A stretch of 57,391 nucleotides of DNA from Candidatus Omnitrophota bacterium. GTDB taxonomy: Bacteria > Omnitrophota > Gorgyraeia > Zapsychrales > Zapsychraceae. The stretch lies in assembly GCA_035292445.1 (NCBI GenBank), contig DATDQB010000021.1:1-57391 (forward strand), written 5' to 3'. The notes beneath the pieces are model-generated. The model was not told the origin of the DNA. It did not search any database and saw only the letters and a program-made list of their open reading frames with translations. The translations under genes and the position numbers were made by a program. Numbering within the stretch: the stretch's first letter is position 1; each line of letters starts with the position of its first letter. Shown in pieces: positions 4,037-55,292 of this stretch.

Positions 4037-5251
4037 ATGTTTCCGAAAAATTTCCTATGGGGAGCGACCACCTCCAGCCATCAAATTGAGGGCTCCAATT
4101 TCAATAACGATTGGTGGGAGTGGGAACAAAAGGGGCGCACCAAAGACCCTTCGGGGGACGCCTGCCGTTCGTATACACTTTACGAAAAAGATTTCGATCT
4201 TGCCCAACAGCTCAACCACAACGCCCATCGGCTTTCCATCGAATGGAGCCGCATCGAGCCTGCTGAAGGCAAGATCAACCAGGAGGAGCTGCGGCATTAC
4301 AAGAAGGTGATAGCAGTCCTCAAAGCCCGTGGGATAGAGCCGATTGTGACGGTCCATCATTTCACCAACCCGGGCTGGTTCAGTTATCTCGGCGGTTGGT
4401 TAAACGATAGAGCGCATAAATATTTTTCTTTTTTCATCGATACGCTTACCGAATGTTTTAAAGATGATGTGCGTTATTGGATCACCATCAATGAGCCTAT
4501 GGTGCTCGCCTGGCATAGTTATCATTTGGGCGTCTGGCCGCCGGGAGAGAAATCTTTCCTGAAAATGTGGCGGGCGCTCAACAATATGCTCAAAGCCCAT
4601 AATATCGCTTACCAAAAGATCCATAAGGTTTATCAAAAACGCACTGCCATCAAGCCGATGGTGGGCATCGCGACCAATTTAAGGCCGTTTTATGTATGCC
4701 CCAAGACCAACAACATGCCCGTGCATGTGGGGGTATTCTTTCGCCATCGGATGTATAACATGTATTCGTTGGATAAGATCAAGCGGCATATGGATTTCAT
4801 CGGCGTCAATTATTACGAAGGGGAATATAACAGCAGCGACCCGGAATTGAAGTTGCCCTATTTCGGCGGCAATTGCACGTACCTTCACGGGCATAACCCG
4901 CACGCCAATCAGCTGGGCTGGCATTTTGATCCCAACGGGCTGTATGAAACGATGAAGTGGCTCAAAAAATATAAACGCCCCATTTTCATCACCGAAAACG
5001 GCACTTGCGAAGAAGATGACAGCTGGCGCATCAAATTTATCGATGAACACCTAAAAAGGGTGGAGAAGGCCATCGCAGAGGGCATCAATGTCATAGGGTA
5101 CCTTCATTGGTCGCTGTTGGACAATTTCGAGTGGCATCACGGGTTCGCTCCGCGTTTCGGCTTGATCGAGGTGGACTATAAGACCTATGAGCGGCGCATT
5201 AAACCAAGCGCGCTGCATCTGGCCCGGATCATTAAAGCAGGTAAAGTGTGA
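4037..5251 (+). CDS. Glycoside hydrolase family 1 (beta-glucosidase-like)
   Basis: FLWGATTSSHQIEG, acid/base motif TINEP, nucleophile motif FITENG, WSLLDNFEW. Confidence 0.93.
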   Translation: MFPKNFLWGATTSSHQIEGSNFNNDWWEWEQKGRTKDPSGDACRSYTLYEKDFDLAQQLNHNAHRLSIEWSRIEPAEGKINQEELRHYKKVIAVLKARGIEPIVTVHHFTNPGWFSYLGGWLNDRAHKYFSFFIDTLTECFKDDVRYWITINEPMVLAWHSYHLGVWPPGEKSFLKMWRALNNMLKAHNIAYQKIHKVYQKRTAIKPMVGIATNLRPFYVCPKTNNMPVHVGVFFRHRMYNMYSLDKIKRHMDFIGVNYYEGEYNSSDPELKLPYFGGNCTYLHGHNPHANQLGWHFDPNGLYETMKWLKKYKRPIFITENGTCEEDDSWRIKFIDEHLKRVEKAIAEGINVIGYLHWSLLDNFEWHHGFAPRFGLIEVDYKTYERRIKPSALHLARIIKAGKV

Positions 5252-20612: not shown

Positions 20613-20684
20613 GTCCCTGTAGCTCAACGGATAGAGCGCTAGCCTCCGGAGCTGGAAGTACAGGTTCGATTCCTGTCAGGGACG
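20613..20684 (+). tRNA. tRNA-Arg (anticodon CCG)
   Basis: Cloverleaf: acceptor GTCCCTG/CAGGGAC, D arm GCTC/GAGC, anticodon arm CTAGC-CTCCGGA-GCTGG, T arm ACAGG-TTCGATT-CCTGT. CCA not encoded. Confidence 0.95.
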
Positions 20685-39987: not shown

Positions 39988-40062
39988 TGCCCTGTCGTCT
40001 AACAGGTAGGACATGAGAATCTGGATCTCAGTATCTTGGTTCGATTCCAAGCGGGGCAGCCA
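39988..40062 (+). tRNA. tRNA-Gln (anticodon CTG), CCA encoded
   Basis: Acceptor TGCCCTG/CGGGGCA (U1-A72), D arm GTCT/GGAC, anticodon arm TGAGA-ATCTGGA-TCTCA, T arm CTTGG-TTCGATT-CCAAG. Confidence 0.93.
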
Positions 40063-40456: not shown

Positions 40457-40491
40457 AGAGATCCATAAATTAGTTATAATTAAACTTGGAA

Positions 40492-40545
40492 GGCGATGAG
40501 GTTCGCCAAAACCACCCGGCAATAATGCGGGATGATAACCTCTAC
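40492..40545 (+). ncRNA. Fluoride riboswitch (crcB motif)
   Basis: GGCGATGAGGTTCGCC P1 followed by TGATAACCTCTAC pseudoknot partner, matching the crcB consensus GGCGAUG..GUUCGCC...UGAUGACUUCUAC. Confidence 0.88.
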
Positions 40546-40568
40546 TGAAAAAACGGTAGAGGTTTTTT
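40537..40568 (+). terminator. Riboswitch expression-platform terminator
   Basis: AACCTCTAC/GTAGAGGTT stem plus TTTTTT, overlapping the aptamer 3' strand. Confidence 0.82.
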
Positions 40569-46469: not shown

Positions 46470-47549
46470 ATGAATGAAGATCTCCCGATTCCCCAAGCCA
46501 AACGCCTTCACGGGCGCGGCGCCTCGTTCAATCCTGCCAATCGATTCGATAAAATTGAGATCGAGCAAGACCCGGATTTTCTGGACGAAGATGACCGCCC
46601 GGCCATCAAAACGGAATTTTATAAAGACACTACAAAGAAAATCATCAATTTTAACGACAGCCCTGACATTAGTTTTTCCGCGAGCGTCAATCCCTACCGC
46701 GGCTGTGAACACGGCTGCATCTATTGCTTCGCCCGGCCGACCCATGAATATTTCGGGCTTTCTTCGGGAGTAGATTTTGAGACAAAGATCTTCGTCAAAG
46801 AAGACGCCGCGCCGTTACTTACCAAGGAGTTAGGCAGGCCTTCCTGGGAGCCTCAGCCGGTGGTGGTGGGCTCGGCAACAGACCCTTACCAGCCTGTCGA
46901 AAGAAAGCTTAAGATCACGCGTGCCATTTTAGAAGTTTTTCTGCAATTTCGTAACCCGCTTGCCATCATTACCAAGAACAGTCTGGTCACCAGGGATATT
47001 GATCTTCTTAAGGGCTTGAATGAATATCAATGCTGCCTGGTCAATGTGTCCATTACCACGCTGGACCGCAAGCTCGCGCGCGTGATGGAGCCGCGCACGG
47101 CAACACCCGAGAATCGCCTTAAGGCCGTCGAGGCGCTTGCCAAGGAAGGCATTCCCGTTAATGTCATGGTCGCGCCGGTCATTCCGGGCTTAAATGATCA
47201 CGAGATCCCGCGGATCCTTAAGGCGGCCGCCGACGCGGGCGCGTGTTCCGCCGCCTACGTTGTCCTGCGGCTTCCTCATACCCTTAAAGATCTGTTCGAG
47301 GATTGGCTCACGCGCCATTTTCCGGATCGCAAGAATAAGATCCTCAACCGCATCCGCTCGATGCGCGGCGGGAAATTGTATGACGCGCAGTTTCACAAGC
47401 GTATGAGAGGCGAAGGCATCTTCGCCGAGCAGATCAAGCAAATGTTTGATGTAGCTTATAGAAAGTGTGGGCTGGATAAAAGGCAGCGGCCAACCCTTTC
47501 GATAGAGTATTTTCGTTCGCCCGCCGAAAAACAGCTCACCCTTTTCTAA
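46470..47549 (+). CDS. PA0069-family radical SAM protein (SplB-like)
   Basis: NPYRGCEHGCIYCFAR, GVDFETKIFVK, TDPYQPVE, MEPRTATP. Confidence 0.92.
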   Translation: MNEDLPIPQAKRLHGRGASFNPANRFDKIEIEQDPDFLDEDDRPAIKTEFYKDTTKKIINFNDSPDISFSASVNPYRGCEHGCIYCFARPTHEYFGLSSGVDFETKIFVKEDAAPLLTKELGRPSWEPQPVVVGSATDPYQPVERKLKITRAILEVFLQFRNPLAIITKNSLVTRDIDLLKGLNEYQCCLVNVSITTLDRKLARVMEPRTATPENRLKAVEALAKEGIPVNVMVAPVIPGLNDHEIPRILKAAADAGACSAAYVVLRLPHTLKDLFEDWLTRHFPDRKNKILNRIRSMRGGKLYDAQFHKRMRGEGIFAEQIKQMFDVAYRKCGLDKRQRPTLSIEYFRSPAEKQLTLF

Positions 47550-47632
47550 TTTGCCACCTTAAGTCCAAGGCCAAGATCAAATATAATTTGCCATATTTTA
47601 CTTGGTTTAATAGAATATTACCAATATCCCCA

Positions 47633-47663
47633 CCGCTCGATCTCCCCGCTAACAAAAGGGGGG
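47633..47663 (+). repeat. Island leader module, copy 1 (no clear cargo gene)
   Basis: CCGCTCGAT-CT-CCCCGCTAACAAAAGGGGGG, preceded by TAGAAT at 47611. Confidence 0.75.
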
Positions 47664-47722
47664 CTCTACGTATGTTTACCATACAGATCTGTGAGTATAT
47701 TGATATGTATGGTAATTTTTAT

Positions 47723-47808
47723 TTGACAAAAGTTAGGTCGCAAAGTATAGTCTAATTCAATTCCCCCAAATATCCGCTCGATGACCCCGCTAACACAAAG
47801 GGGGAAAA
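47723..47808 (+). promoter_or_regulatory. Island promoter plus leader module, copy 2 (RAYT1)
   Basis: TTGACA (47723), 17-bp spacer, TATAGT (47746), TTCAATTCCCCCAA, CCGCTCGAT (47774), CCCCGCTAACACAAAGGGGG, then ATG 47809. Confidence 0.8.
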
Positions 47809-48309
47809 ATGTCTGAAAAAAACAGAAAATTTCTTCGTTTGAAGGGTTATGATTATTCGCAATGCGGGTATTATTTTGTTACCGTTTGTACCAAAGGCCG
47901 TGTGGAATGGTTTGGTAATATTAGGGGTGACAAAATGGAATTGAATGAATACGGCAAAATCGTAAATGATGCCTGGTATTGGTTGGAAAATCAATATGAA
48001 TATGTTTCATTGGATGAATTTATTATTATGCCGAATCATATTCATGGGATTATCTGTATAGATGATTGTAGGGGCGGTTCGCGAACCGCCCCTACGATAA
48101 AATCAATAGGACGATTGGTCGGTGCGTTTAAAACGGTATCCACAAAACAAATTAACCAGGTGCGTAATACGCCAGCCATGCAATTATGGCAACGATCATT
48201 TTTTGATCATATTATCCGCAATGAGGTATCATTACAGCGCATAAGAGAATACATCCGTTCCAATCTAATTATGTGGGCCGAAGATAAAGAGAATCCAGGA
48301 GAGGTATAA
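47809..48309 (+). mobile_element. REP-associated tyrosine transposase (IS200-like Y1 HUH), copy 1
   Basis: LKGYDYS..GYYFVTVC, MPNHIHG (HUH), FKTVS, WQRSFFDHIIRNE and IREYI. Confidence 0.9.
48068..48095. repeat. GTAG-type REP palindrome inside RAYT1
   Basis: Perfect 28-bp palindrome GTAGGGGCGGTTCG/CGAACCGCCCCTAC. Confidence 0.9.
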
Positions 48310-48335
48310 GGTAAATTGGGCTGGCAGGAAGGCAT

Positions 48336-48431
48336 AAAAAAAGAGAGGGAGTAACCTTCGGACGGAACCTTAGGTGTGCCCTCTCATCGTGATTCTGGTT
48401 AAAATATAGCACGCCGGCGGATCCCCGTCAA
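48336..48431 (-). ncRNA. Putative small RNA transcription unit, copy 1 (promoter, hairpin, U tract)
   Basis: Minus-strand TTGACG (48431-48426), 17-bp spacer, TATATT (48408-48403); GAGAGGG/CCCTCTC stem; U tract at 48342-48336; near-identical to 51842-51910. Confidence 0.68.
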
Positions 48432-48510
48432 TTTCTAATTTTTGTGTAGTTTTTTTGCCCTGATCCCCCGATGTCCTAAATTTTCCCTTCCCAAACCCTT
48501 TTCCCGCCCC

Positions 48511-48564
48511 TAGAATACTGACATCCCTACCGCTCGATGACACCCCTAACAAAAGGGGGAAATT
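48511..48564 (+). repeat. Island leader module, copy 3 (ORF6N gene)
   Basis: TAGAAT (48511), TACCGCTCGAT (48528-48538), CCCCTAACAAAAGGGGGAAATT, then ATG 48565. Confidence 0.78.
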
Positions 48565-49080
48565 ATGTCTTCAAGCAGCATCTCAACAGAAATTATCACC
48601 AACAAGATCTTCATCATTAGGGGCCAGAAAGTAATGCTCGATCGCGATCTGGCGGAGCTTTATGGTGTTGATACAAAACAACTCAAAAGAGCAGTTAAAA
48701 GAAATATAGCCCGCTTCCCGGAAGATTTTATGTTCGAATTAACACAGCAAGAGGACAACACTTTAAGGTACCAATTTGGCACCTTAAAAAGAGGTGAACA
48801 TACCAAATATTTGCCTTATGTTTTTACCGAGCAAGGGGTGGCCATGCTCTCAAGCGTTTTACGCTCAACGCGGGCGGTCCAGGTCAATATCGCCATCATG
48901 CGGGCGTTTGTCAGGTTGCGCGATATGCTTTCGTTGCACAAAGAGCTGGCGGTGAAGCTAAAGGAATTGGAGCGAAAGGTTGAGGGAAATACGGGGGCCA
49001 TACGTGATATTTTTAAAGTGCTTGAGTGGCTGAGGAAGGAAGAGGAGAAGCCTAAGGGGAAGATAGGGTTTCATCCATGA
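48565..49080 (+). CDS. ORF6N domain DNA-binding protein
   Basis: IRGQKVMLDRDLAELYGV, AVKRNIARFPEDFMFEL, PYVFTEQGVAMLSSVL. Confidence 0.92.
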   Translation: MSSSSISTEIITNKIFIIRGQKVMLDRDLAELYGVDTKQLKRAVKRNIARFPEDFMFELTQQEDNTLRYQFGTLKRGEHTKYLPYVFTEQGVAMLSSVLRSTRAVQVNIAIMRAFVRLRDMLSLHKELAVKLKELERKVEGNTGAIRDIFKVLEWLRKEEEKPKGKIGFHP

Positions 49081-49154
49081 AGTACGCCAATACCATCTGC
49101 ACCTGGCCTGCTGAAGAGCGGTTTCGTGAGCGGCTCGCGAAGTATGGCGAACAC
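49077..49154 (+). pseudogene. radC: 5' fragment of a radC gene (first about 26 codons)
   Basis: TICTWPAEERFRERLAKYGEH matches the RadC N-terminus, then runs into a hairpin element. Confidence 0.7.
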
Positions 49155-49273
49155 GGCGAGCACTTACGCTTACGGAGCGAAGCGAACGTAAGCGTTAGGC
49201 GCAGCCGCCCCGGTGAATTCGTCCGTCCGCTAAATAATGTCTGCGGACGCCCGGGGCATAAAAAGGAGAAATT

Positions 49274-49714
49274 ATGAAAGAAACATATAGAAGCACAATT
49301 TGTAATTGGCCGATTAATGATCGACCACGAGAGCGTTTGGCTAAATACGGAGAACATAATTTATCCAACACTGAACTCCTCGCCATCCTCTTGCGCACCG
49401 GCGTCAAAGGCGAGACCGCCATAGATCTGGCCCGCAAGATCCTTAACAAATTCAAAACCTTCCGCAACATGAGCCACACAGATAGCCGCTTCACCACCCC
49501 CATCATCCGCGAGATCTTCCAAAAGGCGCTGCAGAACTTCGCCACCTCAATCATTTGCGTGCATAATCATCCTTCAGGTATTGCGGCACCAAGCCATGAG
49601 GATAGGGAGTTTACGCGCAAGCTCAAACAGGTGGGAGAGGCGATGCAGATCAGTGTTTTGGATCATATAATTATCGGCAACAACGCGCATTATTCCTTTA
49701 CCGAATCCGTGTAG
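49274..49714 (+). pseudogene. radC: RadC/JAB-domain gene with in-frame internal deletion
   Basis: RPRERLAKYG..LSNTELLAILLRTG joined directly to REIFQKAL...HNHPSG...VLDHIIIG. Only 146 aa; the central region is absent. Confidence 0.72.
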
Positions 49715-49743
49715 GGTCACAGGAAAGTATCTCTTGAAATCGA

Positions 49744-49785
49744 CTTACACTACATATATACTTAAACAAACAAATGTAGTGTAAG
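49744..49785. promoter_or_regulatory. Palindromic operator over the promoter/RBS of the two-gene NTase operon
   Basis: Perfect 12-bp IR CTTACACTACAT / ATGTAGTGTAAG flanking TATACT, with the right arm abutting AAGGAGG. Confidence 0.75.
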
Positions 49786-49795
49786 GAGGCCGGCC

Positions 49796-50110
49796 GTGAG
49801 GATCTTAAAGAACATTCTTCAAGAGAGCGAGCAATATTACCTGGATATCCGAAAGAAAATTCGGCAGAGACTTGCCAAACTCTCCGGAGGAAGCGTCAAA
49901 AAACGGGTCATATCCGGTAAAATATATTATTATCTGCAGGTCAGGCAAGGGAAAAAGGTCGTCCATAAATATCTGGGCAAGAAAAAGCCTGAAGTACTCA
50001 TCAAAGAGATCGAAGAGCGGATCATGTTAAAGCAGGAATTAAAGAAAATTGATGAAGCGTTGAAGCTATTGCACAAAACAAAGGATCGCAAGCGTGGAAA
50101 AGGAAATTAA
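49796..50110 (+). CDS. Small basic hypothetical protein (candidate antitoxin/regulator)
   Basis: AAGGAGG plus GTG start; GSVKKRVISGKIYYYLQ...HKYLG motif with coiled-coil ends; overlaps the next gene. Confidence 0.7.
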   Translation: MRILKNILQESEQYYLDIRKKIRQRLAKLSGGSVKKRVISGKIYYYLQVRQGKKVVHKYLGKKKPEVLIKEIEERIMLKQELKKIDEALKLLHKTKDRKRGKGN

Positions 50111-50780
50111 ACGAATATTGAAAGTCTTTGAGAAGCATGGCTTGTTCGAAGAAGGCATTCTTCTCATCGGCAGCTGGTGCTTTCAGCTTTATCAAAAACA
50201 CCTCGATGTTCCTGCGTTCCCGTTGTTGACGCAGGATATAGATTTCCTGATTCCCAATCCGTATAAAGGCAAAATAGACAATGAGTTTATTGATGATCTA
50301 AAAGCGCTTGGATTCATGGCCGAGCACCGCAGAGACGGCTCGCTGTATTTATGGAATGCCGAGCTCAAGATCGAATTTATTACGCCGGAGAAAGGGAGGG
50401 GCGTGGATCGGGCTATCCTTATTAAGAATCTGGGATTCCGGGCCATTCCCTTGAGATTCGTGAACCTCTTATTGGATGGTTTTATCAGTATCAACGATGA
50501 CGGTGTACGCATATCCGTGCCAAAGCCGATCAATTTTTGTCTTCATAAGATCCTGATTATCAGCCGCCGCAGGAATACGGCCAAAGCGTTGAAGGATCTA
50601 CAGCATGCGGTTCATACCTTTAGTAAAGTCGATCATCAGGAGTTCCTCAAAGCCTTTAAAAAATTACCCCGCAAATGGCAATTAACGATCGAGCGCACTT
50701 TAATTAAATTCAAGTCGCAAGATCCTCTCTTGGAAGACCAGATCGAAAGAATGCTAGTTACCCTACAAACCACCAAATAA
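50094..50780 (+). CDS. GSU2403-family nucleotidyltransferase-fold protein
   Basis: LLIGSWC, TQDIDFL, IEFITP, PLRFVNLL, FCLHKILIS.RR and KALKD. Confidence 0.78.
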   Translation: MEKEIKRILKVFEKHGLFEEGILLIGSWCFQLYQKHLDVPAFPLLTQDIDFLIPNPYKGKIDNEFIDDLKALGFMAEHRRDGSLYLWNAELKIEFITPEKGRGVDRAILIKNLGFRAIPLRFVNLLLDGFISINDDGVRISVPKPINFCLHKILIISRRRNTAKALKDLQHAVHTFSKVDHQEFLKAFKKLPRKWQLTIERTLIKFKSQDPLLEDQIERMLVTLQTTK

Positions 50781-50822
50781 TATCACTTGTAAGGTAAAAT
50801 AACCGGTTAACTGCCGCTTCAG

Positions 50823-50968
50823 TCTGATCCCCTGATATCCTTCAACCTGATGCCCCGATAACCCGATGACCTTGAAGTTTGTGTCTTGCCCCTCGCATGC
50901 GCTCGGGGTTCTCGCGAGGAGTACCGAGCGGAACGCGAGGTATGTCCTGTGTCTTGTGACTTGTGTCT
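50823..50968. repeat. Degenerate YGATNNCC octamer and TGTGWCT heptamer arrays interrupted by a palindrome
   Basis: About 5 octamers at 50823-50868; TGTGTCT at 50880, 50948 and 50962, TGTGACT at 50955; CCTCGC/GCGAGG hairpin at 50891-50940. Confidence 0.65.
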
Positions 50969-51121
50969 TTTCCAATGGTAGAAAACTGTCAGCCAAACGC
51001 CCCCTCAACCCCCGTGAAGTCTTACCTTTATATAAAAAAATTACTATTAGATTAAGACGAACGGCCCCAAAGTGCGAGCGTAGCGAGCATTTGGGGGGTG
51101 AGCACTCCCCGAAGCCGAAAG

Positions 51122-51308
51122 TTGACAAACTTTACTCTATAACGTATAGTTTTATTCAATTCCCCCCAACATATCCGCTCGATTTCTAAACGAGCCCCGC
51201 TTTTTGCTTTCGCAAGAAAGTAGCGGGGCGAGTTAACCCCGGTGAATTCGTCCCGCCTTCTCTAAGGTGGCATGGGACGTCCGGGGCCCGCTAACACAAA
51301 GGGGGAAT
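51122..51308 (+). promoter_or_regulatory. Island promoter plus leader module, copy 4, split by an about 100-bp two-hairpin insert
   Basis: TTGACA (51122), 17-bp spacer, TATAGT (51145), TTCAATTCCCCCCAA, CCGCTCGAT (51175), insert, CCCGCTAACACAAAGGGGG (51287-51305), then ATG 51309. Confidence 0.8.
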
Positions 51309-51776
51309 ATGCCGCATCAAATTGATCAGTCAGGAAAAATTGAGGCAACAAGCAAGAACACCATTTTGTGTCTGTCGAATGATGAATGGATTGCCGTTAA
51401 GATAGAAGCGAAAGCCAAAAGGCAATTACAAGAGATCTTCCGTAGAAATGGGCAACCGAGGAATTTTGTCCTTTTTACCTTTTCTGCTGGGCTAGCCATT
51501 TTACTTGATAGAACTAAGCATATTTCCAGAATTATGGTGGATCAGGAATATTATGGGAAGGAAGCTGTTATCAAGAACATTGTTCTTAAAATGTTGAAGC
51601 ACCGTGAGGGACCGTTAGAAATTAATTTTGGTAATATTGGTAAGAAAGCGTTGGCGCATCATCGGGCTTATGCGGTGGCAACGGGAAGGCTTAAAGCATC
51701 CTATACGGTTGGATTGAAAGAGTTGTATTATAAAATAAAAATGACCGAGGTCGGTAAACGACTGAAGAACGCTTAA
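51309..51776 (+). CDS. Divergent DUF3800-like / RNase H-fold protein
   Basis: N-terminal IDQSG (compare the DUF3800 xDESG motif), IMVDQEY, and C-terminal AHHRAY in the position of the ADxxA helix. 155 aa. Confidence 0.55.
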   Translation: MPHQIDQSGKIEATSKNTILCLSNDEWIAVKIEAKAKRQLQEIFRRNGQPRNFVLFTFSAGLAILLDRTKHISRIMVDQEYYGKEAVIKNIVLKMLKHREGPLEINFGNIGKKALAHHRAYAVATGRLKASYTVGLKELYYKIKMTEVGKRLKNA

Positions 51777-51817
51777 GCCTCCGGTTGAAACGGAGTGGGT
51801 CGGCGTTCACTCGGTCA
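51733..51817 (-). ncRNA. Structured RNA overlapping the 3' end of the DUF3800-like gene
   Basis: TGACCGAG/CTCGGTCA closing stem, GTCG/CGAC, GAACGC/GCGTTC and CTCCG/CGGAG; minus-strand U tract (AAATAAAAA on +). Confidence 0.68.
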
Positions 51818-51841
51818 AATAATTAAATCTTTTTTAATAGC

Positions 51842-51929
51842 GAGAGGGAGTAACCTTCGGACGCAACCTAGGTGTGCCCTCTCATCGTGATTCTGCTTAG
51901 AATATAACACAGGCCTTAGGACAAGTCAA
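51842..51929 (-). ncRNA. Putative small RNA transcription unit, copy 2
   Basis: About 70-bp near-identical copy of 48343-48412, with minus-strand TTGACT (51929-51924), 17-bp spacer, TATATT (51906-51901). Confidence 0.68.
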
Positions 51930-51940
51930 ATCCCTTTTCC

Positions 51941-52047
51941 CCGATCCTCTGATAACCTGATCTCCTCCAACCCGATCCCCTGATCCCCCCGATATCCCGA
52001 TATCCTGATATCCTGATATCCTCCGACCTGATTCCCTGATACCCCGA
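51941..52047. repeat. Degenerate octamer tandem repeat (YGATNNCC, about 13 units)
   Basis: cgatcccc tgatcccc cgatatcc cgatatcc tgatatcc tgatatcc ... tgattccc tgataccc. Confidence 0.85.
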
Positions 52048-52142
52048 TGGCCTATAAGTTTTCCCTTCCCAAATCCCGCTCCCACCGCTAAAATACCCCC
52101 ATGCCCCCGTTCGCCCTCAACCCCGCCACCACGCGCTGACAT

Positions 52143-52778
52143 ATGAGAATAATCTTTGCCATTCATGGGATCAGAAGCTCCAAAAAAGATAATTGGGTCC
52201 GTAAGTTTATCGATTTTTCCAAAAAGGATCCGAGATGCAAAGATGATATCTTGGTCCCGCATACATATGGTTATCTCTGGGCGCTTCATTCGGTTAACGC
52301 TATAATAAAGCATCAGCATGTAAAAAGAGTAATGAGGACGCTTCGCGAGCTCACCTCAAAGTATCCGAAGGCGGCGTTGAACATCGTTGGGCACAGTTAC
52401 GGCACGGAACTAAGTTACCAGGCCATTAAGCGAAGCGGCGAAGACGGCAAGCCCCCCATTAAAGTCGACAAATTGATCCTGGTTGCCAGCATTGTCTCCG
52501 CCCACAGGGAGATCCCTTACAAAGACACCTTAAGAGCGAGGAAGCTGAATGAGCTGCATTGTTATTGCAGTTATGAAGACGAAGTTTGCCGGTATAACCC
52601 GTTCGGTCATTCCGGTTGTTTTGGATTTCTAAGACATGTTCATGACCCGATGTGTTATCACAAACCGTTCAAAGACTTAGAGATCTATAACCATCAACAG
52701 AAAGATTTAGAGCATGGCGACTACTTTAAAGGAACAAAGTTTTTTAAGGAGTGGCTTGATATTATTGCAAAAAAATGA
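52143..52778 (+). CDS. Standalone alpha/beta-hydrolase-fold protein
   Basis: IFAIHGI, nucleophile elbow GHSYG, LILVAS, YEDEV and EHGDYF. Confidence 0.75.
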   Translation: MRIIFAIHGIRSSKKDNWVRKFIDFSKKDPRCKDDILVPHTYGYLWALHSVNAIIKHQHVKRVMRTLRELTSKYPKAALNIVGHSYGTELSYQAIKRSGEDGKPPIKVDKLILVASIVSAHREIPYKDTLRARKLNELHCYCSYEDEVCRYNPFGHSGCFGFLRHVHDPMCYHKPFKDLEIYNHQQKDLEHGDYFKGTKFFKEWLDIIAKK

Positions 52779-53108
52779 ATCCTTACAACTTACGGTTTAT
52801 AACTTAGGACTTATTTGACCCCATCGCTGGTGCTAGGCATTCAGACAAATCCGGTATCACGCAGGATTCCCGCACCATTGCGATGATTTTGAAGATTCTG
52901 TTGGGTAAAAAAATTGAACAGCCCAAGCGGAATTATGGGTATGTTTATAGGAATGTAGCGTAGAACGCGTCTATTCTCATCAATAAAACCCAATTTTTAA
53001 GCTCAAACCCAAGTCCAGGTTTCGGTTGAAAAATAGCGATCTCACCTATATTATACTTCTATCAATAATATTTATAGTACTCCCAAATATACTTAACAAG
53101 GAGTCTTT

Positions 53109-54647: not shown

Positions 54648-55292
54648 ATGCTTTATTTATATTTAGATGAAAGCGGGGATTTAGGGTTTGATTTTGTTAC
54701 TAAAAAGCCGTCAAAGTATTTTACGTTGAGCGTGCTTGTTGTTAAAGGACAAAAAAATAATCGTGCCATAATTAATACCGTTAAGCATACATTTAAACGT
54801 AAATTACATAAAAAGAAACTGCTTTTAGGGGGCGAATTAAAGGGGAGTAAGGTTTCTTTGGATATTAAGAAATATTTTTATAGGCAAATCGCGAAAATAG
54901 ATTTTAAGATTTATGCCCTTACACTTAATAAGAAGAGGGTTAATCAGAGTTTAGTCAGCGTAAAAGAGCGTCTATATAATTATATTGCCCGTTTGGTTCT
55001 TGACCAAATAGACATTAATAATGCGCATCAAAGGGTAATCTTTATTTTGGATAGAAGTAAAGGAAAACCGGAAATCGCTGACTTCAATAAATACATTTTT
55101 GATCAGATTAAAGGCAGACTTAATCCACAGATTCCTTTAGATATTGTACATAAACTTTCACATGAAATGCCAGGGCTTCAGGCGGCGGATCTTTTTGCGT
55201 GGGGAATCTTTAGGAAGTACGAAAAGCGGGATATGGAATGGTTCAATGTATTTAAAGGGAGTGTTATTTTTGATGACGTATATCTTCCATGA
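54648..55292 (+). CDS. DUF3800 domain protein (RNase H-like fold)
   Basis: YLDESGDLG, ELKGS, ILDRS and GLQAADLFAW. Confidence 0.85.
   Translation: MLYLYLDESGDLGFDFVTKKPSKYFTLSVLVVKGQKNNRAIINTVKHTFKRKLHKKKLLLGGELKGSKVSLDIKKYFYRQIAKIDFKIYALTLNKKRVNQSLVSVKERLYNYIARLVLDQIDINNAHQRVIFILDRSKGKPEIADFNKYIFDQIKGRLNPQIPLDIVHKLSHEMPGLQAADLFAWGIFRKYEKRDMEWFNVFKGSVIFDDVYLP

What the first reader, a model, noticed from the sequence alone, without database searches (positions are those of the whole stretch)
47611..51308. Repeated promoter-leader-RBS module in front of unrelated cargo genes: cassette-like island
Seen: CCGCTCGAT followed by CCC(G)CTAAC(AC)AAA(A)GGGGG and an ATG occurs at 47633 (empty), 47774 (RAYT), 48530 (ORF6N) and 51175/51287 (DUF3800-like; split by an insert). 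Copies 2 and 4 also share TTGACA-17-TATAGT and TTCAATTCCCCC(C)AA. Copies 1 and 3 share a TAGAAT -10. The radC leader tail (ATAAAAAGGAGAAATTATG) resembles copy 3. Cargo ORFs begin right at the module's ATG. No integrase or attC site is visible. Inference: an undescribed gene-cassette or expression-module shuffling system in which defence/TA-like ORFs are exchanged behind a standard leader, with the HUH RAYT as candidate recombinase.
Basis: partly seen in the sequence, partly recalled or inferred. Interest (0 to 1): 0.8.

Follow-up and report, generated by a model that had tools for sequence, protein, structure and literature searches.

The report
Reused promoter-leader module in a mosaic island
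A ~60-90-base promoter, leader and ribosome-binding-site segment really is repeated in front of four unrelated accessory genes in a 5-kb island of an uncultured bacterium, but it looks like promoter reuse in a rearranging defence island, not a new gene-cassette machine.

Summary
CCGCTCGAT followed by CCCC(G)CTAACA(C)AAAGGGGG and an ATG occurs at all four stated places. Each copy lies behind a good sigma-70-like promoter. The two subtypes align as one family from the -10 to the Shine-Dalgarno sequence (SD). The family is confined to 47.6-51.3 kb, is absent before about 45 housekeeping genes in the window, and was not found in 185,579 reference genomes.

A related metagenome contig carries the same module in front of the orthologous ORF6N gene. 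There the C-run/SD hairpin shows a compensatory change. I read the module as a working promoter plus a 5' UTR that masks the SD.

The cassette-exchange reading is not supported. Ten other assemblies of this locus are 99.9-100% identical. The window encodes no integrase and has no attC-like partner for the module. The module has no GTAG-tagged hairpin of the kind RAYTs recognise. Leaders stay with their genes in relatives.

Related contigs do carry the same genes in a different order. Two insertions sit at the same module junction. Recombination among these repeats is therefore plausible. The closest known kind is "putative mobile promoters".

Side finds:
- a conserved convergent small RNA next to the 155-aa gene family, whose predicted fold weakly resembles RNase H;
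- GTAG palindromes inside both RAYT genes.

The parts
47588..47671 (+). Module copy 1 ('alpha1', no protein gene): TTGCCA-17-TAGAAT promoter, box CCGCTCGAT 47633-47641, CCCCGCTAACAAAAGGGGGG 47644-47663
   Evidence: HMM E = 1e-13
47672..47755 (+). 27-codon ORF behind copy 1, overlapping a terminator-like hairpin (arms 47676-47689 / 47702-47715) followed by TTTTTATTT. Copy 1 may give a short transcript.
   Evidence: I5
47723..47808 (+). Module copy 2 ('beta2'): TTGACA-17-TATAGT, TTCAATTCCCCC, box 47774-47782, CCCCGCTAACACAAAGGGGG, then the ATG of RAYT1
   Evidence: (11/12)
47809..48309 (+). RAYT1, a Y1 HUH transposase-like protein of 166 aa. It contains the perfect 28-nt palindrome GTAGGGGCGGTTCGCGAACCGCCCCTAC at 48068-48095.
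48336..48431 (-). Minus-strand unit 3' of RAYT1: TTGACG-17-TATATT promoter (48431-48403), hairpin GAGAGGG...CCCTCTC (48343-48385), then a U-run
   Evidence: D12, D19; 94% identical to the copy at 51842
48477..48564 (+). Module copy 3 ('alpha3'): C-rich upstream region, TTCCCA-17-TAGAAT, box 48530-48538, CCCCTAACAAAAGGGGG, then the ATG of the ORF6N gene. An orthologous copy is in L146 192-250.
   Evidence: (D8)
48565..49080 (+). ORF6N-domain protein, 171 aa; matches the PADLOC defence candidate PDC-S05
   Evidence: (E = 6.5e-64)
49077..49714 (+). Duplicated radC 5' fragment (49077-49277), REP-like hairpin 'REP-b' (49208-49256), SD, then an internally deleted radC (49274-49714)
51122..51308 (+). 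Module copy 4 ('beta4'): TTGACA-17-TATAGT, TTCAATTCCCCCC, box 51175-51183, a 103-nt insert of two REP-like hairpins (51184-51286), then CCCGCTAACACAAAGGGGG and the ATG
   Evidence: (I1)
51309..51776 (+). 155-aa protein of a widespread family with no Pfam match. The AlphaFold model is confident; Foldseek matches to RNase H are only weak.
51765..51929 (-). Convergent minus-strand RNA of the 155-aa gene: promoter TTGACT-17-TATATT (51929-51901), hairpin (51842-51884), conserved core (51818-51777), running over the stop codon
52066..52142 (+). Degenerate module-like leader (TTCCCA-17-TAAAAT, CCGTTCGCC, CCCCGCCACCA) before the lipase-like ORF 52143-52778. It is below the detection level of the module HMM.
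   Evidence: (D8)
55297..55426 (-). DUF3800-V RNA (Rfam RF02964, 55396-55297) with its own TTGACA-17-TATACT promoter (55426-55398), convergent on the DUF3800 gene 54648-55292. Its 5' AUCGAGCGG is the complement of the module box (+ strand 55385-55393).
55478..56081 (+). CCCCGCTA (55478-55485) followed by RAYT2 (55521/55530-56081; 47% identical to RAYT1; palindrome 55782-55809). Together with the box at 55385 this may be a fifth, split module copy.

Best explanation
The module is a lineage-specific, reused expression unit.

What it contains:
- a sigma-70-type promoter;
- a ~45-60-nt 5' UTR with a conserved CCGCUCGAU box;
- two C-runs that can pair with a strong extended SD (AAAGGGGG);
- a start codon 5-9 nt after the SD.

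What it does: it gives each of several horizontally acquired accessory genes its own transcription start and a partly masked ribosome-binding site.

How the copies arose: by local duplication, gene conversion or recombination of non-coding DNA inside a hairpin-rich, decaying mosaic island. This is 'promoter reuse' (a putative mobile promoter), not the work of a dedicated site-specific cassette system.

What is shown: the repeat family, its confinement to the island, the promoter and SD anatomy, its conservation in one related organism, and the absence of structural variation in the sampled population.

What is inferred: that the promoters fire, that the hairpin throttles translation, that the box is a shared regulatory site, and the route of spread.
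For: 1. Four significant copies plus an orthologous one, and none elsewhere in the window or in 1.7 Mb of other loci. There were 0 hits in genome contigs. The single metagenome hit is the same locus.
2. Conservation follows function. Between beta2 and beta4 the -35 is 6/6, the -10 is 6/6, the 17-nt spacer is 8/17 (random level), the 23 nt upstream are 5/23, and the transcribed leader is about 92% identical. Similarity stops at the ATG.
3. These are the best promoter-like sites in the island.
4. Every leader folds so that the SD pairs with a C-run (z about -1.9 each).
5. In L146 the orthologous ORF6N gene (87% aa identity) has the same module with CCUC...GGAGG in place of CCCC...GGGGG. That is a compensatory change which keeps the SD hairpin.
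6. Housekeeping genes in the other 47 kb have ordinary, unrelated upstream regions.
7. The island is visibly decaying and rearranged:
- a duplicated radC 5' end and an internally deleted radC;
- a C-terminal fragment of the lipase-like gene lying out of frame;
- several REP-like hairpin families shared with the related contigs.
8. Highly similar upstream sequences before unrelated genes are a documented, common class, with more than 4000 families (PMC3575422).
Against: - There is no transcription or translation data.
- Fold z-scores are modest, and the copies are homologous, so they are not independent evidence.
- Only one compensatory change was seen.
- Simple promoter reuse does not explain the exact 9-mer recurring twice more on the same strand outside modules (47354, 55385). 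It also does not explain two insertions at the same box|hairpin junction.
- The beta2/beta4 leaders (92%) are more alike than the alpha3/L146 orthologues (about 70%). This implies recent copying or conversion by an unknown route.
- The rest of this genome could not be searched.
Confidence: 0.55

Rival explanations
1. HUH cassette system. The junction between CCGCTCGAT and the CCCC...GGGG hairpin is a single-strand recombination site cut and rejoined by the RAYT-like Y1 enzymes. Promoter-bearing gene units are inserted and excised there. Copy 1 is an empty site.
For: - All six CCGCTCGAT copies are on the same strand as both RAYT genes.
- A gene-less copy exists.
- Two insertions lie at the same junction: 103 nt in beta4 and about 85 nt before RAYT2.
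- Both RAYT paralogues (47% identity) have the box plus CCCCGCTA upstream.
- The same genes occur in a different order in L008 and L145/146.
- Leaders are mosaic.
Against: - No cargo or order variation in 10 other assemblies.
- Homology between the window and L146 runs straight through the box into the promoter.
- The left and right halves of the module are never reassorted: beta left halves go with CAC loops and alpha left halves with CAA loops (A3).
- The hairpin has only 4-5 bp and overlaps the SD.
- There is no GTAG/GTGG guide. RAYT1/2 score below the NCBIfam REP-transposase cut-off.
- RAYT1's family is large and RAYT1 has no close paralogue: the nearest relative is at most 66% identical among 1865 hits.
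Confidence: 0.1
2. Shared regulon. The conserved box is a cis-site for one trans-acting factor that co-regulates the island genes. The factor could be the 5' end of the DUF3800-V small RNA (AUCGAGCGG, 9-12 nt complementary to all leaders) or a DNA-binding protein such as the ORF6N protein. This can be true together with the best explanation.
For: - The box is the most conserved non-promoter, non-SD part of the leader (A3).
- It has a perfect complement at the 5' end of an independently promoted small RNA 4-8 kb away.
- The complementarity is 11 nt, plus a possible G-U pair, with the ORF6N leader.
- Extra boxes exist outside leaders.
Against: - In the L146 orthologue the box is CCGCCCGAT.
- In the predicted DUF3800-V fold, GAGCG of the 9-mer is already paired in stem P1.
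- The Rfam consensus is not conserved at most of these positions.
- Duplex energies are not otherwise above shuffled controls.
- Only one genome is available.
Confidence: 0.2
3. A MITE-like or REP-like mobile element with outward-facing promoters (Correia/ERIC-like) that transposes as a unit and happens to land upstream of genes.
For: - A 220-300-nt intergenic block occurs twice (48343-48564 and 51842-52142). Each block has a minus-strand promoter plus hairpin, C-rich repeats, and a plus-strand promoter plus leader.
- RAYT genes are nearby.
Against: - There are no terminal inverted repeats and no target duplications.
- No copies lie outside the island in 47 kb.
- The hairpin plus minus-strand promoter belongs to the antisense RNA of the 155-aa gene in L008 too. 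It is therefore part of that gene unit, not of an independent element.
Confidence: 0.1
4. Chance similarity of promoters and ribosome-binding sites.
For: The -35, -10 and SD parts are consensus-like and could converge.
Against: - The 9-mer and the 19-mer are far above the shuffle expectation.
- The HMM E-values are 1e-13 or lower.
- Housekeeping leaders differ.
Confidence: 0.01

Closest known systems
Putative mobile promoters / promoter reuse (Matus-Garcia, Nijveen & van Passel 2012; PMC3575422)
   Same: Highly similar non-coding sequence upstream of unrelated coding sequences within one genome. The way it spreads is unknown. Such sequences can carry post-transcriptional elements.
   Different: - Here the repeat spans the whole promoter, 5' UTR and SD down to the ATG. 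The published screen looked at -150 to -50.
- Identity is 75-92%, not at least 80% over 50 nt throughout.
- The four to five copies are clustered in 4 kb of one island.
Integron gene-cassette arrays (IntI, attI, attC)
   Same: An array of unrelated, mostly accessory genes in one orientation, each bounded by a related short repeat with hairpin potential.
   Different: - There is no tyrosine recombinase in the window.
- The repeat is at the 5' end and carries its own promoter and SD. attC sites are 3' of promoterless cassettes.
- There is no R''/L''-L'/R' inverted architecture.
- No array variation was seen.
REP/REPIN-RAYT systems (REPtrons, TIRtrons) and IS200/IS605 ends
   Same: Y1 HUH genes lie next to short repeated hairpin-containing DNA. 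All box copies share one strand orientation.
   Different: - The module lacks a GTAG/GTGG tag and a stable stem (REP definitions in PMC6006769 and PMC3733652).
- RAYT1's two flanks share only CGATGA.
- The copies are few and local.
- The only GTAG-tagged palindromes are inside the RAYT coding sequences.
Promoter-carrying MITEs (Neisseria Correia elements, ERIC); named as promoter-carrying elements in PMC3575422, the rest from my own knowledge
   Same: Small intergenic repeats that supply promoters and RNA hairpins to neighbouring genes.
   Different: No terminal inverted repeats, no target-site duplication, and no dispersed copies.

Membership tests
Integron | intI tyrosine recombinase adjacent to the array | tested here: not met
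   Pfam scans of about 50 ORFs of the window, and the precomputed Pfam annotation of the contig, show no integrase or recombinase. The contig ends at 57.4 kb, so a gene beyond that point cannot be excluded.
Integron | attC at the 3' end of each promoterless cassette, with inverted R''/L'' and L'/R' boxes | tested here: not met
   The repeat lies 5' of each ORF and contains a promoter and SD. No inverted partner of GCTAAC is present in the module. IntegronFinder itself was not run.
REP/REPIN with RAYT (REPtron) | GTAG or GTGG tetranucleotide 0-2 nt 5' of a GC-rich stem of at least 7 bp (PMC6006769) | tested here: not met
   The module stem is CCCC/GGGG (4-5 bp) and has no GTAG/GTGG. GTAGGG...CCCTAC occurs only inside the two RAYT genes.
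REP/REPIN with RAYT (REPtron) | RAYT gene flanked by the repeat in inverted orientation | tested here: not met
   The left flank is the module and the right flank is a different hairpin. They share only CGATGA.
REP/REPIN with RAYT (REPtron) | Many dispersed genomic copies | not testable with these tools
   Only 58 kb of this genome is available. Within it the copies are confined to about 4 kb.
IS200/IS605-type element | Unrelated DNA 5' of the left cleavage site, subterminal hairpins at both ends, multiple near-identical copies | tested here: not met
   Sequence 5' of the box (the promoter) is part of the repeat. RAYT1 has no near-identical paralogue among 1865 homologues.
Putative mobile promoter (PMP) | Similar upstream non-coding sequence before non-homologous coding sequences in one genome | tested here: met
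   The cargo proteins are unrelated (Pfam).
Putative mobile promoter (PMP) | At least 80% identity over at least 50 nt in the -150 to -50 region (the published screen's criterion) | tested here: inconclusive
   Alpha1/alpha3 are 82% identical over 44 nt (D4). Beta2/beta4 are 75% over 51 nt (D9) and about 92% over the leader. The conserved part lies mostly within -90 to -1.
Known cis-regulatory RNA (Rfam) | Match to an Rfam covariance model | tested here: not met
   No family matches any module, even at E up to 10.
DUF3800 protein (for the 155-aa cargo) | Match to Pfam PF12686 or profile similarity to a DUF3800 protein | tested here: not met
   No Pfam hit for 64 family members. hhalign against the window's DUF3800 protein gives probability 0.2%. 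The only resemblance is the layout: a gene plus a convergent small RNA.

The most novel reading that the evidence does not exclude
The CCGCTCGAT|CCCC-hairpin junction is a single-strand recombination site. The two RAYT-like HUH enzymes use it to insert and excise promoter-bearing gene units. This would be an integron-like cassette platform built on HUH chemistry, with copy 1 as the empty site and the 103-nt and ~85-nt inserts as traces of insertion.
Probability: 0.07. Interest if true: 0.85.

Novelty: new member of a known kind. Interest (0 to 1): 0.35.

Why it matters
As it stands, this is a clean example of promoter and 5'-UTR reuse. It shows how an uncultured bacterium may wire horizontally acquired defence-type genes into expression: each gene gets the same promoter, leader and masked ribosome-binding site. 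The lineage is probably Omnitrophota-like, judged only from the names of the nearest ORF6N homologues.

It would matter far more if the box|hairpin junction proved to be a recombination site for the neighbouring RAYT-like enzymes, because the cellular role of this very large RAYT-like family is unknown.

Two side observations may be of wider use than the module itself:
- a widespread 155-aa protein family of unknown function is always followed by a conserved, separately promoted convergent small RNA;
- GTAG palindromes are embedded in-frame in the RAYT genes.

Tried and rejected
- Exact module pattern in genome contigs: 0 hits. In metagenome contigs: 1 hit, which is the same locus.
- Loose pattern in viral contigs: 26 hits, all chance matches in coding DNA. 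This includes L048, which looked similar but lies inside a phage gene just upstream of a terminase-like ORF.
- The hairpin pattern and the 3'-element pattern in viral contigs: 0 hits each. The 155-aa family in viral contigs: none.
- Synteny through the radical-SAM neighbour: the nearest reference genomes are only 62% identical or less and come from many phyla, so there is no usable relative.
- Rfam at gathering thresholds and at E up to 10: nothing on the modules.
- blastn of the island against plasmids and phages: only ORF6N coding matches.
- RNA-RNA duplex screen of the three minus-strand RNAs against all leaders: nothing beyond the 9-mer complement of DUF3800-V.
- Hammerhead-ribozyme reading of the element 3' of the 155-aa gene (GAAAC...GUC): rejected. 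The covariation supports a different hairpin, and there is no CUGAUGA core.
- Contig breaks about 285 nt into RAYT1 as a sign of strain variation: rejected. They coincide with the perfect palindrome and with other hairpins.
- Orthology of L008's leader to copy 1: only a 16-nt exact block; the rest is a mosaic.
- Two look-ups (P0003, P0005) returned no DNA.

Full report
**1. Observation**

The region was read directly. CCGCTCGAT occurs six times in the 57-kb window. All copies are on the + strand and all lie between 47354 and 55393. The expectation is 0.57, and no shuffle of 100 reaches six.

Four copies (47633, 47774, 48530, 51175) are followed by CCCC(G)CTAACA(C)AAAGGGGG and an ATG. In the fourth copy the two halves are separated by a 103-nt insert (51184-51286). 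The insert folds into two strong REP-like hairpins (z = -3.6).

Each copy sits behind a sigma-70-like promoter. TTGACA-17-TATAGT at 47723 and 51122 scores 11/12 and is among the best three sites in the island. TTGCCA-17-TAGAAT at 47588 and TTCCCA-17-TAGAAT at 48488 follow.

The 'TAGAAT' and 'TATAGT' subtypes align as one family from the -10 to the SD (A1 and A3). An HMM of the four copies scores them at E 1e-13 or lower. It finds nothing else in the window or in 1.7 Mb of other loci.

A self-comparison shows every repeat of the region to be confined to 47.5-52.2 kb. The upstream regions of about 45 housekeeping ORFs in the other 47 kb are unrelated and have ordinary AGGAG-type SDs.

**2. Anatomy of the island**

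The island starts after a radical-SAM gene (46470-47549). Pfam, NCBIfam and PADLOC give the identities below. In order:

- copy 1, followed by a 27-codon ORF and a terminator-like hairpin;
- copy 2 and RAYT1;
- a minus-strand promoter plus hairpin;
- C-rich repeats and copy 3, then an ORF6N protein (PADLOC candidate PDC-S05, E = 6.5e-64);
- a duplicated radC 5' fragment, a REP-like hairpin (REP-b) and an internally deleted radC;
- a DUF6788 / NTP_transf_8 gene pair;
- more hairpins, then copy 4 and a 155-aa protein;
- a second copy of the minus-strand promoter plus hairpin (94% identical to the first);
- C-rich repeats and a degenerate module before a lipase-like ORF, whose C-terminal part lies out of frame downstream (compare L008);
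- hsdM, DUF3800, the DUF3800-V RNA (Rfam, 74.6 bits, minus strand), RAYT2 and hsdS.

Two blocks of non-coding 'backbone' are therefore homologous: 47723-48564 and 51122-52142. The genes in their two slots are unrelated: RAYT1 versus the 155-aa gene, and ORF6N versus the lipase-like gene.

No integrase or other recombinase is encoded anywhere in the window. G+C content is only slightly lower than in the flank.

**3. Distribution elsewhere**

- The exact module pattern has no match in one genome for each of 185,579 species.
- It has one match in the JGI metagenomes, which is this same locus.
- Matches to a looser pattern in viral contigs are chance hits in coding DNA.
- blastn against plasmid and phage collections matches only the ORF6N coding sequence.
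- Ten other assemblies that carry this locus are 99.9-100% identical and colinear. They come from JGI, ENA and Logan samples that appear to hold the same population.
- Their contig ends fall at perfect palindromes, for example 48093-48096 inside RAYT1. This is an assembly effect, not variation.
- No close relative of the organism is among the reference genomes: the radical-SAM neighbour is at most 62% identical.
- The nearest named homologues of the ORF6N protein are from Omnitrophota/Omnitrophica MAGs. That is only a hint of the lineage.

**4. Related organisms**

Two related metagenome contigs were informative.

*L146/L145.* They encode an ORF6N protein 87% identical to the window's. An orthologous module lies upstream: TATAGAA...ATATCCCATCCGCCCGATTTCCTCGCTAACAAAAGGAGGAATCATG.

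- Similarity to the window continues upstream of the box through the promoter region. The box is therefore not a unit boundary there.
- The box differs by one base.
- The C-run and SD changed together, from CCCC/GGGG(G) to CCUC/GGAG(G). This keeps the predicted SD hairpin.
- Downstream, the same REP-b hairpin plus SD precedes a 95-aa gene, where the window has radC. A radC 5' fragment lies further on.

*L008.* It encodes a 155-aa protein 78% identical to the window's. It has the same 3' element and the same GAGGG hairpin with a minus-strand promoter. Its upstream leader is degenerate and is a mosaic of pieces of copies 1, 3/5 and 2. L008 also carries the lipase-like gene and the 95-aa gene, in another order.

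The three relatives therefore share a gene set and several non-coding repeat families, but the order differs. Leaders tend to stay with their genes.

**5. How the module most likely works**

Between copies 2 and 4, similarity follows function:

| Segment | Identity |
|---|---|
| 23 nt upstream of the -35 | 5/23 |
| -35 | 6/6 |
| 17-nt spacer | 8/17 (random level) |
| -10 | 6/6 |
| transcribed leader | about 92% |
| after the ATG | none |

- The SD AAAGGGGG can pair with 3'-UUUCCUCC-5', the usual 16S rRNA 3' end, with one G-U pair. The 16S sequence is from my own knowledge; the organism's own 16S was not seen.
- In all copies, and in L146, the minimum-energy fold pairs the SD with one of two C-runs that flank the box. 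The z-scores are about -1.9, which is modest.

I conclude that the module is a promoter plus an SD-masking 5' UTR that gives each accessory gene its own expression signals.

The copies arose by duplication or conversion of non-coding DNA. This fits the documented class of 'putative mobile promoters' (PMC3575422). Copies 2 and 4 are more alike (92%) than the copy 3 / L146 orthologues (about 70%), which points to recent copying or conversion. The route is unknown.

**6. The cassette / RAYT hypothesis**

For:
- all boxes lie on one strand;
- there is a gene-less copy;
- two insertions lie at the same box|hairpin junction: 103 nt in copy 4, and about 85 nt between the box at 55385 and CCCCGCTA at 55478 before RAYT2;
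- both RAYT paralogues therefore have box-plus-CCCCGCTA upstream;
- gene order is shuffled among relatives.

Against:
- no polymorphism;
- homology runs through the box in L146;
- left and right module halves are never reassorted;
- the stem has only 4-5 bp and overlaps the SD;
- there is no GTAG/GTGG tag as defined for REPs (PMC6006769, PMC3733652);
- RAYT1 belongs to a very large family and has no close paralogue;
- both RAYTs score below the NCBIfam REP-transposase cut-off.

I put this hypothesis at about 0.1.

**7. The regulon idea**

The + strand 9-mer at 55385 means that the DUF3800-V RNA starts with AUCGAGCGG, the exact complement of the box. The complementarity reaches 11 nt with the ORF6N leader. 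DUF3800-V is transcribed from its own 11/12 promoter.

Two more exact 9-mers on the + strand of about 11 kb are unlikely to be chance: about 0.05 are expected, scaling. However, part of the 9-mer is already paired in stem P1 of the RNA. The box also differs in L146. This remains a hint.

**8. Side findings**

(a) *The 155-aa protein family.* It has more than 130 homologues, mostly on short metagenome contigs, some from Patescibacteria/Levybacteria MAGs, and no Pfam match.
- The AlphaFold model is confident (pLDDT 92.9). Foldseek matches to RNase H domains are only weak (E about 0.04, TM about 0.4).
- D6, D78 and E80 are invariant.
- In seven distinct loci the stop codon is followed at once by a conserved element. 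In six distinct loci a well-placed sigma-70 promoter on the opposite strand would start an RNA at UUGACCGAGUGGAUGCCGACCCAC. In the window the hairpin lies between that promoter and this core.
- The next hairpin of that RNA covaries: three pairs change on both sides, and 0 of 500 shuffles reach the observed covariation score.
- This 'gene plus convergent small RNA' layout parallels DUF3800 / DUF3800-V 3.5 kb away, although the proteins are not detectably related.

(b) *Palindromes in the RAYT genes.* Both RAYT genes contain a perfect 28-nt GTAGGG...CCCTAC palindrome at the same codon position. In RAYT1 it encodes (C)RGGSRTAPT, which is nearly invariant in 14 family members.

**9. Verdict**

Its novel part, cassette exchange catalysed by a RAYT, is unsupported.

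Novelty: a new member of a known kind (promoter reuse). Interest: 0.35.

Noticed in passing
window 51765-51929 (-); L008 1872-1990; L009 5457-5540; L019 3187-3270; L137 4457-4560; L141 1506-1590: The 155-aa protein family (no Pfam match; confident model with only weak Foldseek matches to RNase H) is always followed, right after its stop codon, by a conserved element. That element is the 5' part of a convergent RNA with its own sigma-70 promoter. It has an invariant core UGACCGAGUGGAYGCCGACCCAC followed by a covarying hairpin. It is not in Rfam.
   Followed up: partly
window 48336-48431 (-) and 51842-51929 (-); L008 1927-1990: A TTGAC(G/T)-17-TATATT promoter drives a hairpin, GAGAGGGCACACCUA(A)GGUU.CGUCCGAAGGUUACUCCCUCUC. 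The copy 3' of RAYT1 ends in a U-run, so it looks like an orphan small RNA. The copies 3' of the 155-aa gene run into the antisense core. The hairpin core is identical in a contig whose protein is only 78% identical.
   Followed up: partly
window 48068-48095 and 55782-55809: Both RAYT genes contain a perfect 28-nt 'double-foot' GTAGGG...CCCTAC palindrome at the same codon position. RAYT1's palindrome encodes (C)RGGSRTAPT, which is nearly invariant across the family. Two homologues (P0174, P0196) carry extra GGSRTAP-like copies near the C-terminus. Assemblies break at this palindrome.
   Followed up: partly
window 55297-55426 (-): A DUF3800-V RNA (Rfam RF02964, 74.6 bits) with its own 11/12 promoter lies convergent on a DUF3800 gene. 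That gene is inserted, together with RAYT2, between hsdM and hsdS of a type I restriction-modification operon. The 5' AUCGAGCGG of the RNA is the exact complement of the leader box.
   Followed up: partly
window 47354-47362: A sixth exact CCGCTCGAT, on the same strand, lies inside the radical-SAM coding sequence about 200 nt before the island. It matches copy 2 over 12 nt.
   Followed up: no
window 49208-49256 and 51237-51286; L145 584-632; L146 793-841: The REP-like hairpin CCCCGGTGAATTCG...CCGGGG ('REP-b') sits immediately upstream of the SD of three different genes: radC, the 155-aa gene, and a 95-aa gene in L146. A second hairpin family (GCGAGCG.TAGCGAGC) is shared by the window (51074) and L146 in opposite orientation.
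   Followed up: partly
window 49077-49714: A fragment resembling the radC 5' end (49077-49277) overlaps the ORF6N stop codon. The radC that follows is only 146 aa and lacks about 70 residues internally. L145 also carries a radC 5' fragment.
   Followed up: no
window 52143-52960: The lipase-like ORF (211 aa) ends early. Sequence at about 52800-52960 encodes, in another frame, the C-terminal part found intact in L008 (GARHS...NYGY.Y). This looks like a frameshifted or rearranged pseudogene.
   Followed up: no
window 50824-50880, 51949-52061 and 48455-48475: C-rich, roughly heptameric repeats (CCCTGAT / CCCCGAT / CCTGAT) lie on the coding strand between the minus-strand and plus-strand promoters. 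C/T-rich tracts also precede the -10 of some housekeeping genes, for example at 4037 and 14220.
   Followed up: no
window 47672-47755: The 'empty' module is followed by a 27-codon ORF (MFTIQICEYIDMYGNFYLTKVRSQSIV) and a 14-bp-arm hairpin plus T-run. It could be a short RNA, a small peptide gene, or the remnant of a lost gene.
   Followed up: no
L019 2650-2706 (-): There is a weak second match (19.4 bits) of the antisense-RNA model just after a 120-aa gene, immediately upstream of the 155-aa gene. This may be a related gene/RNA pair.
   Followed up: no
window 49796-50780: A DUF6788 (104 aa) and NTP_transf_8 nucleotidyltransferase (228 aa) pair with overlapping reading frames, laid out like a toxin-antitoxin pair. 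It has no module upstream.
   Followed up: no
window 40483-40551, 20613-20684, 39988-40059: A fluoride riboswitch lies before a Na+/H+-exchanger-family gene (PF00999), and there are two tRNA genes in the housekeeping part of the window.
   Followed up: no
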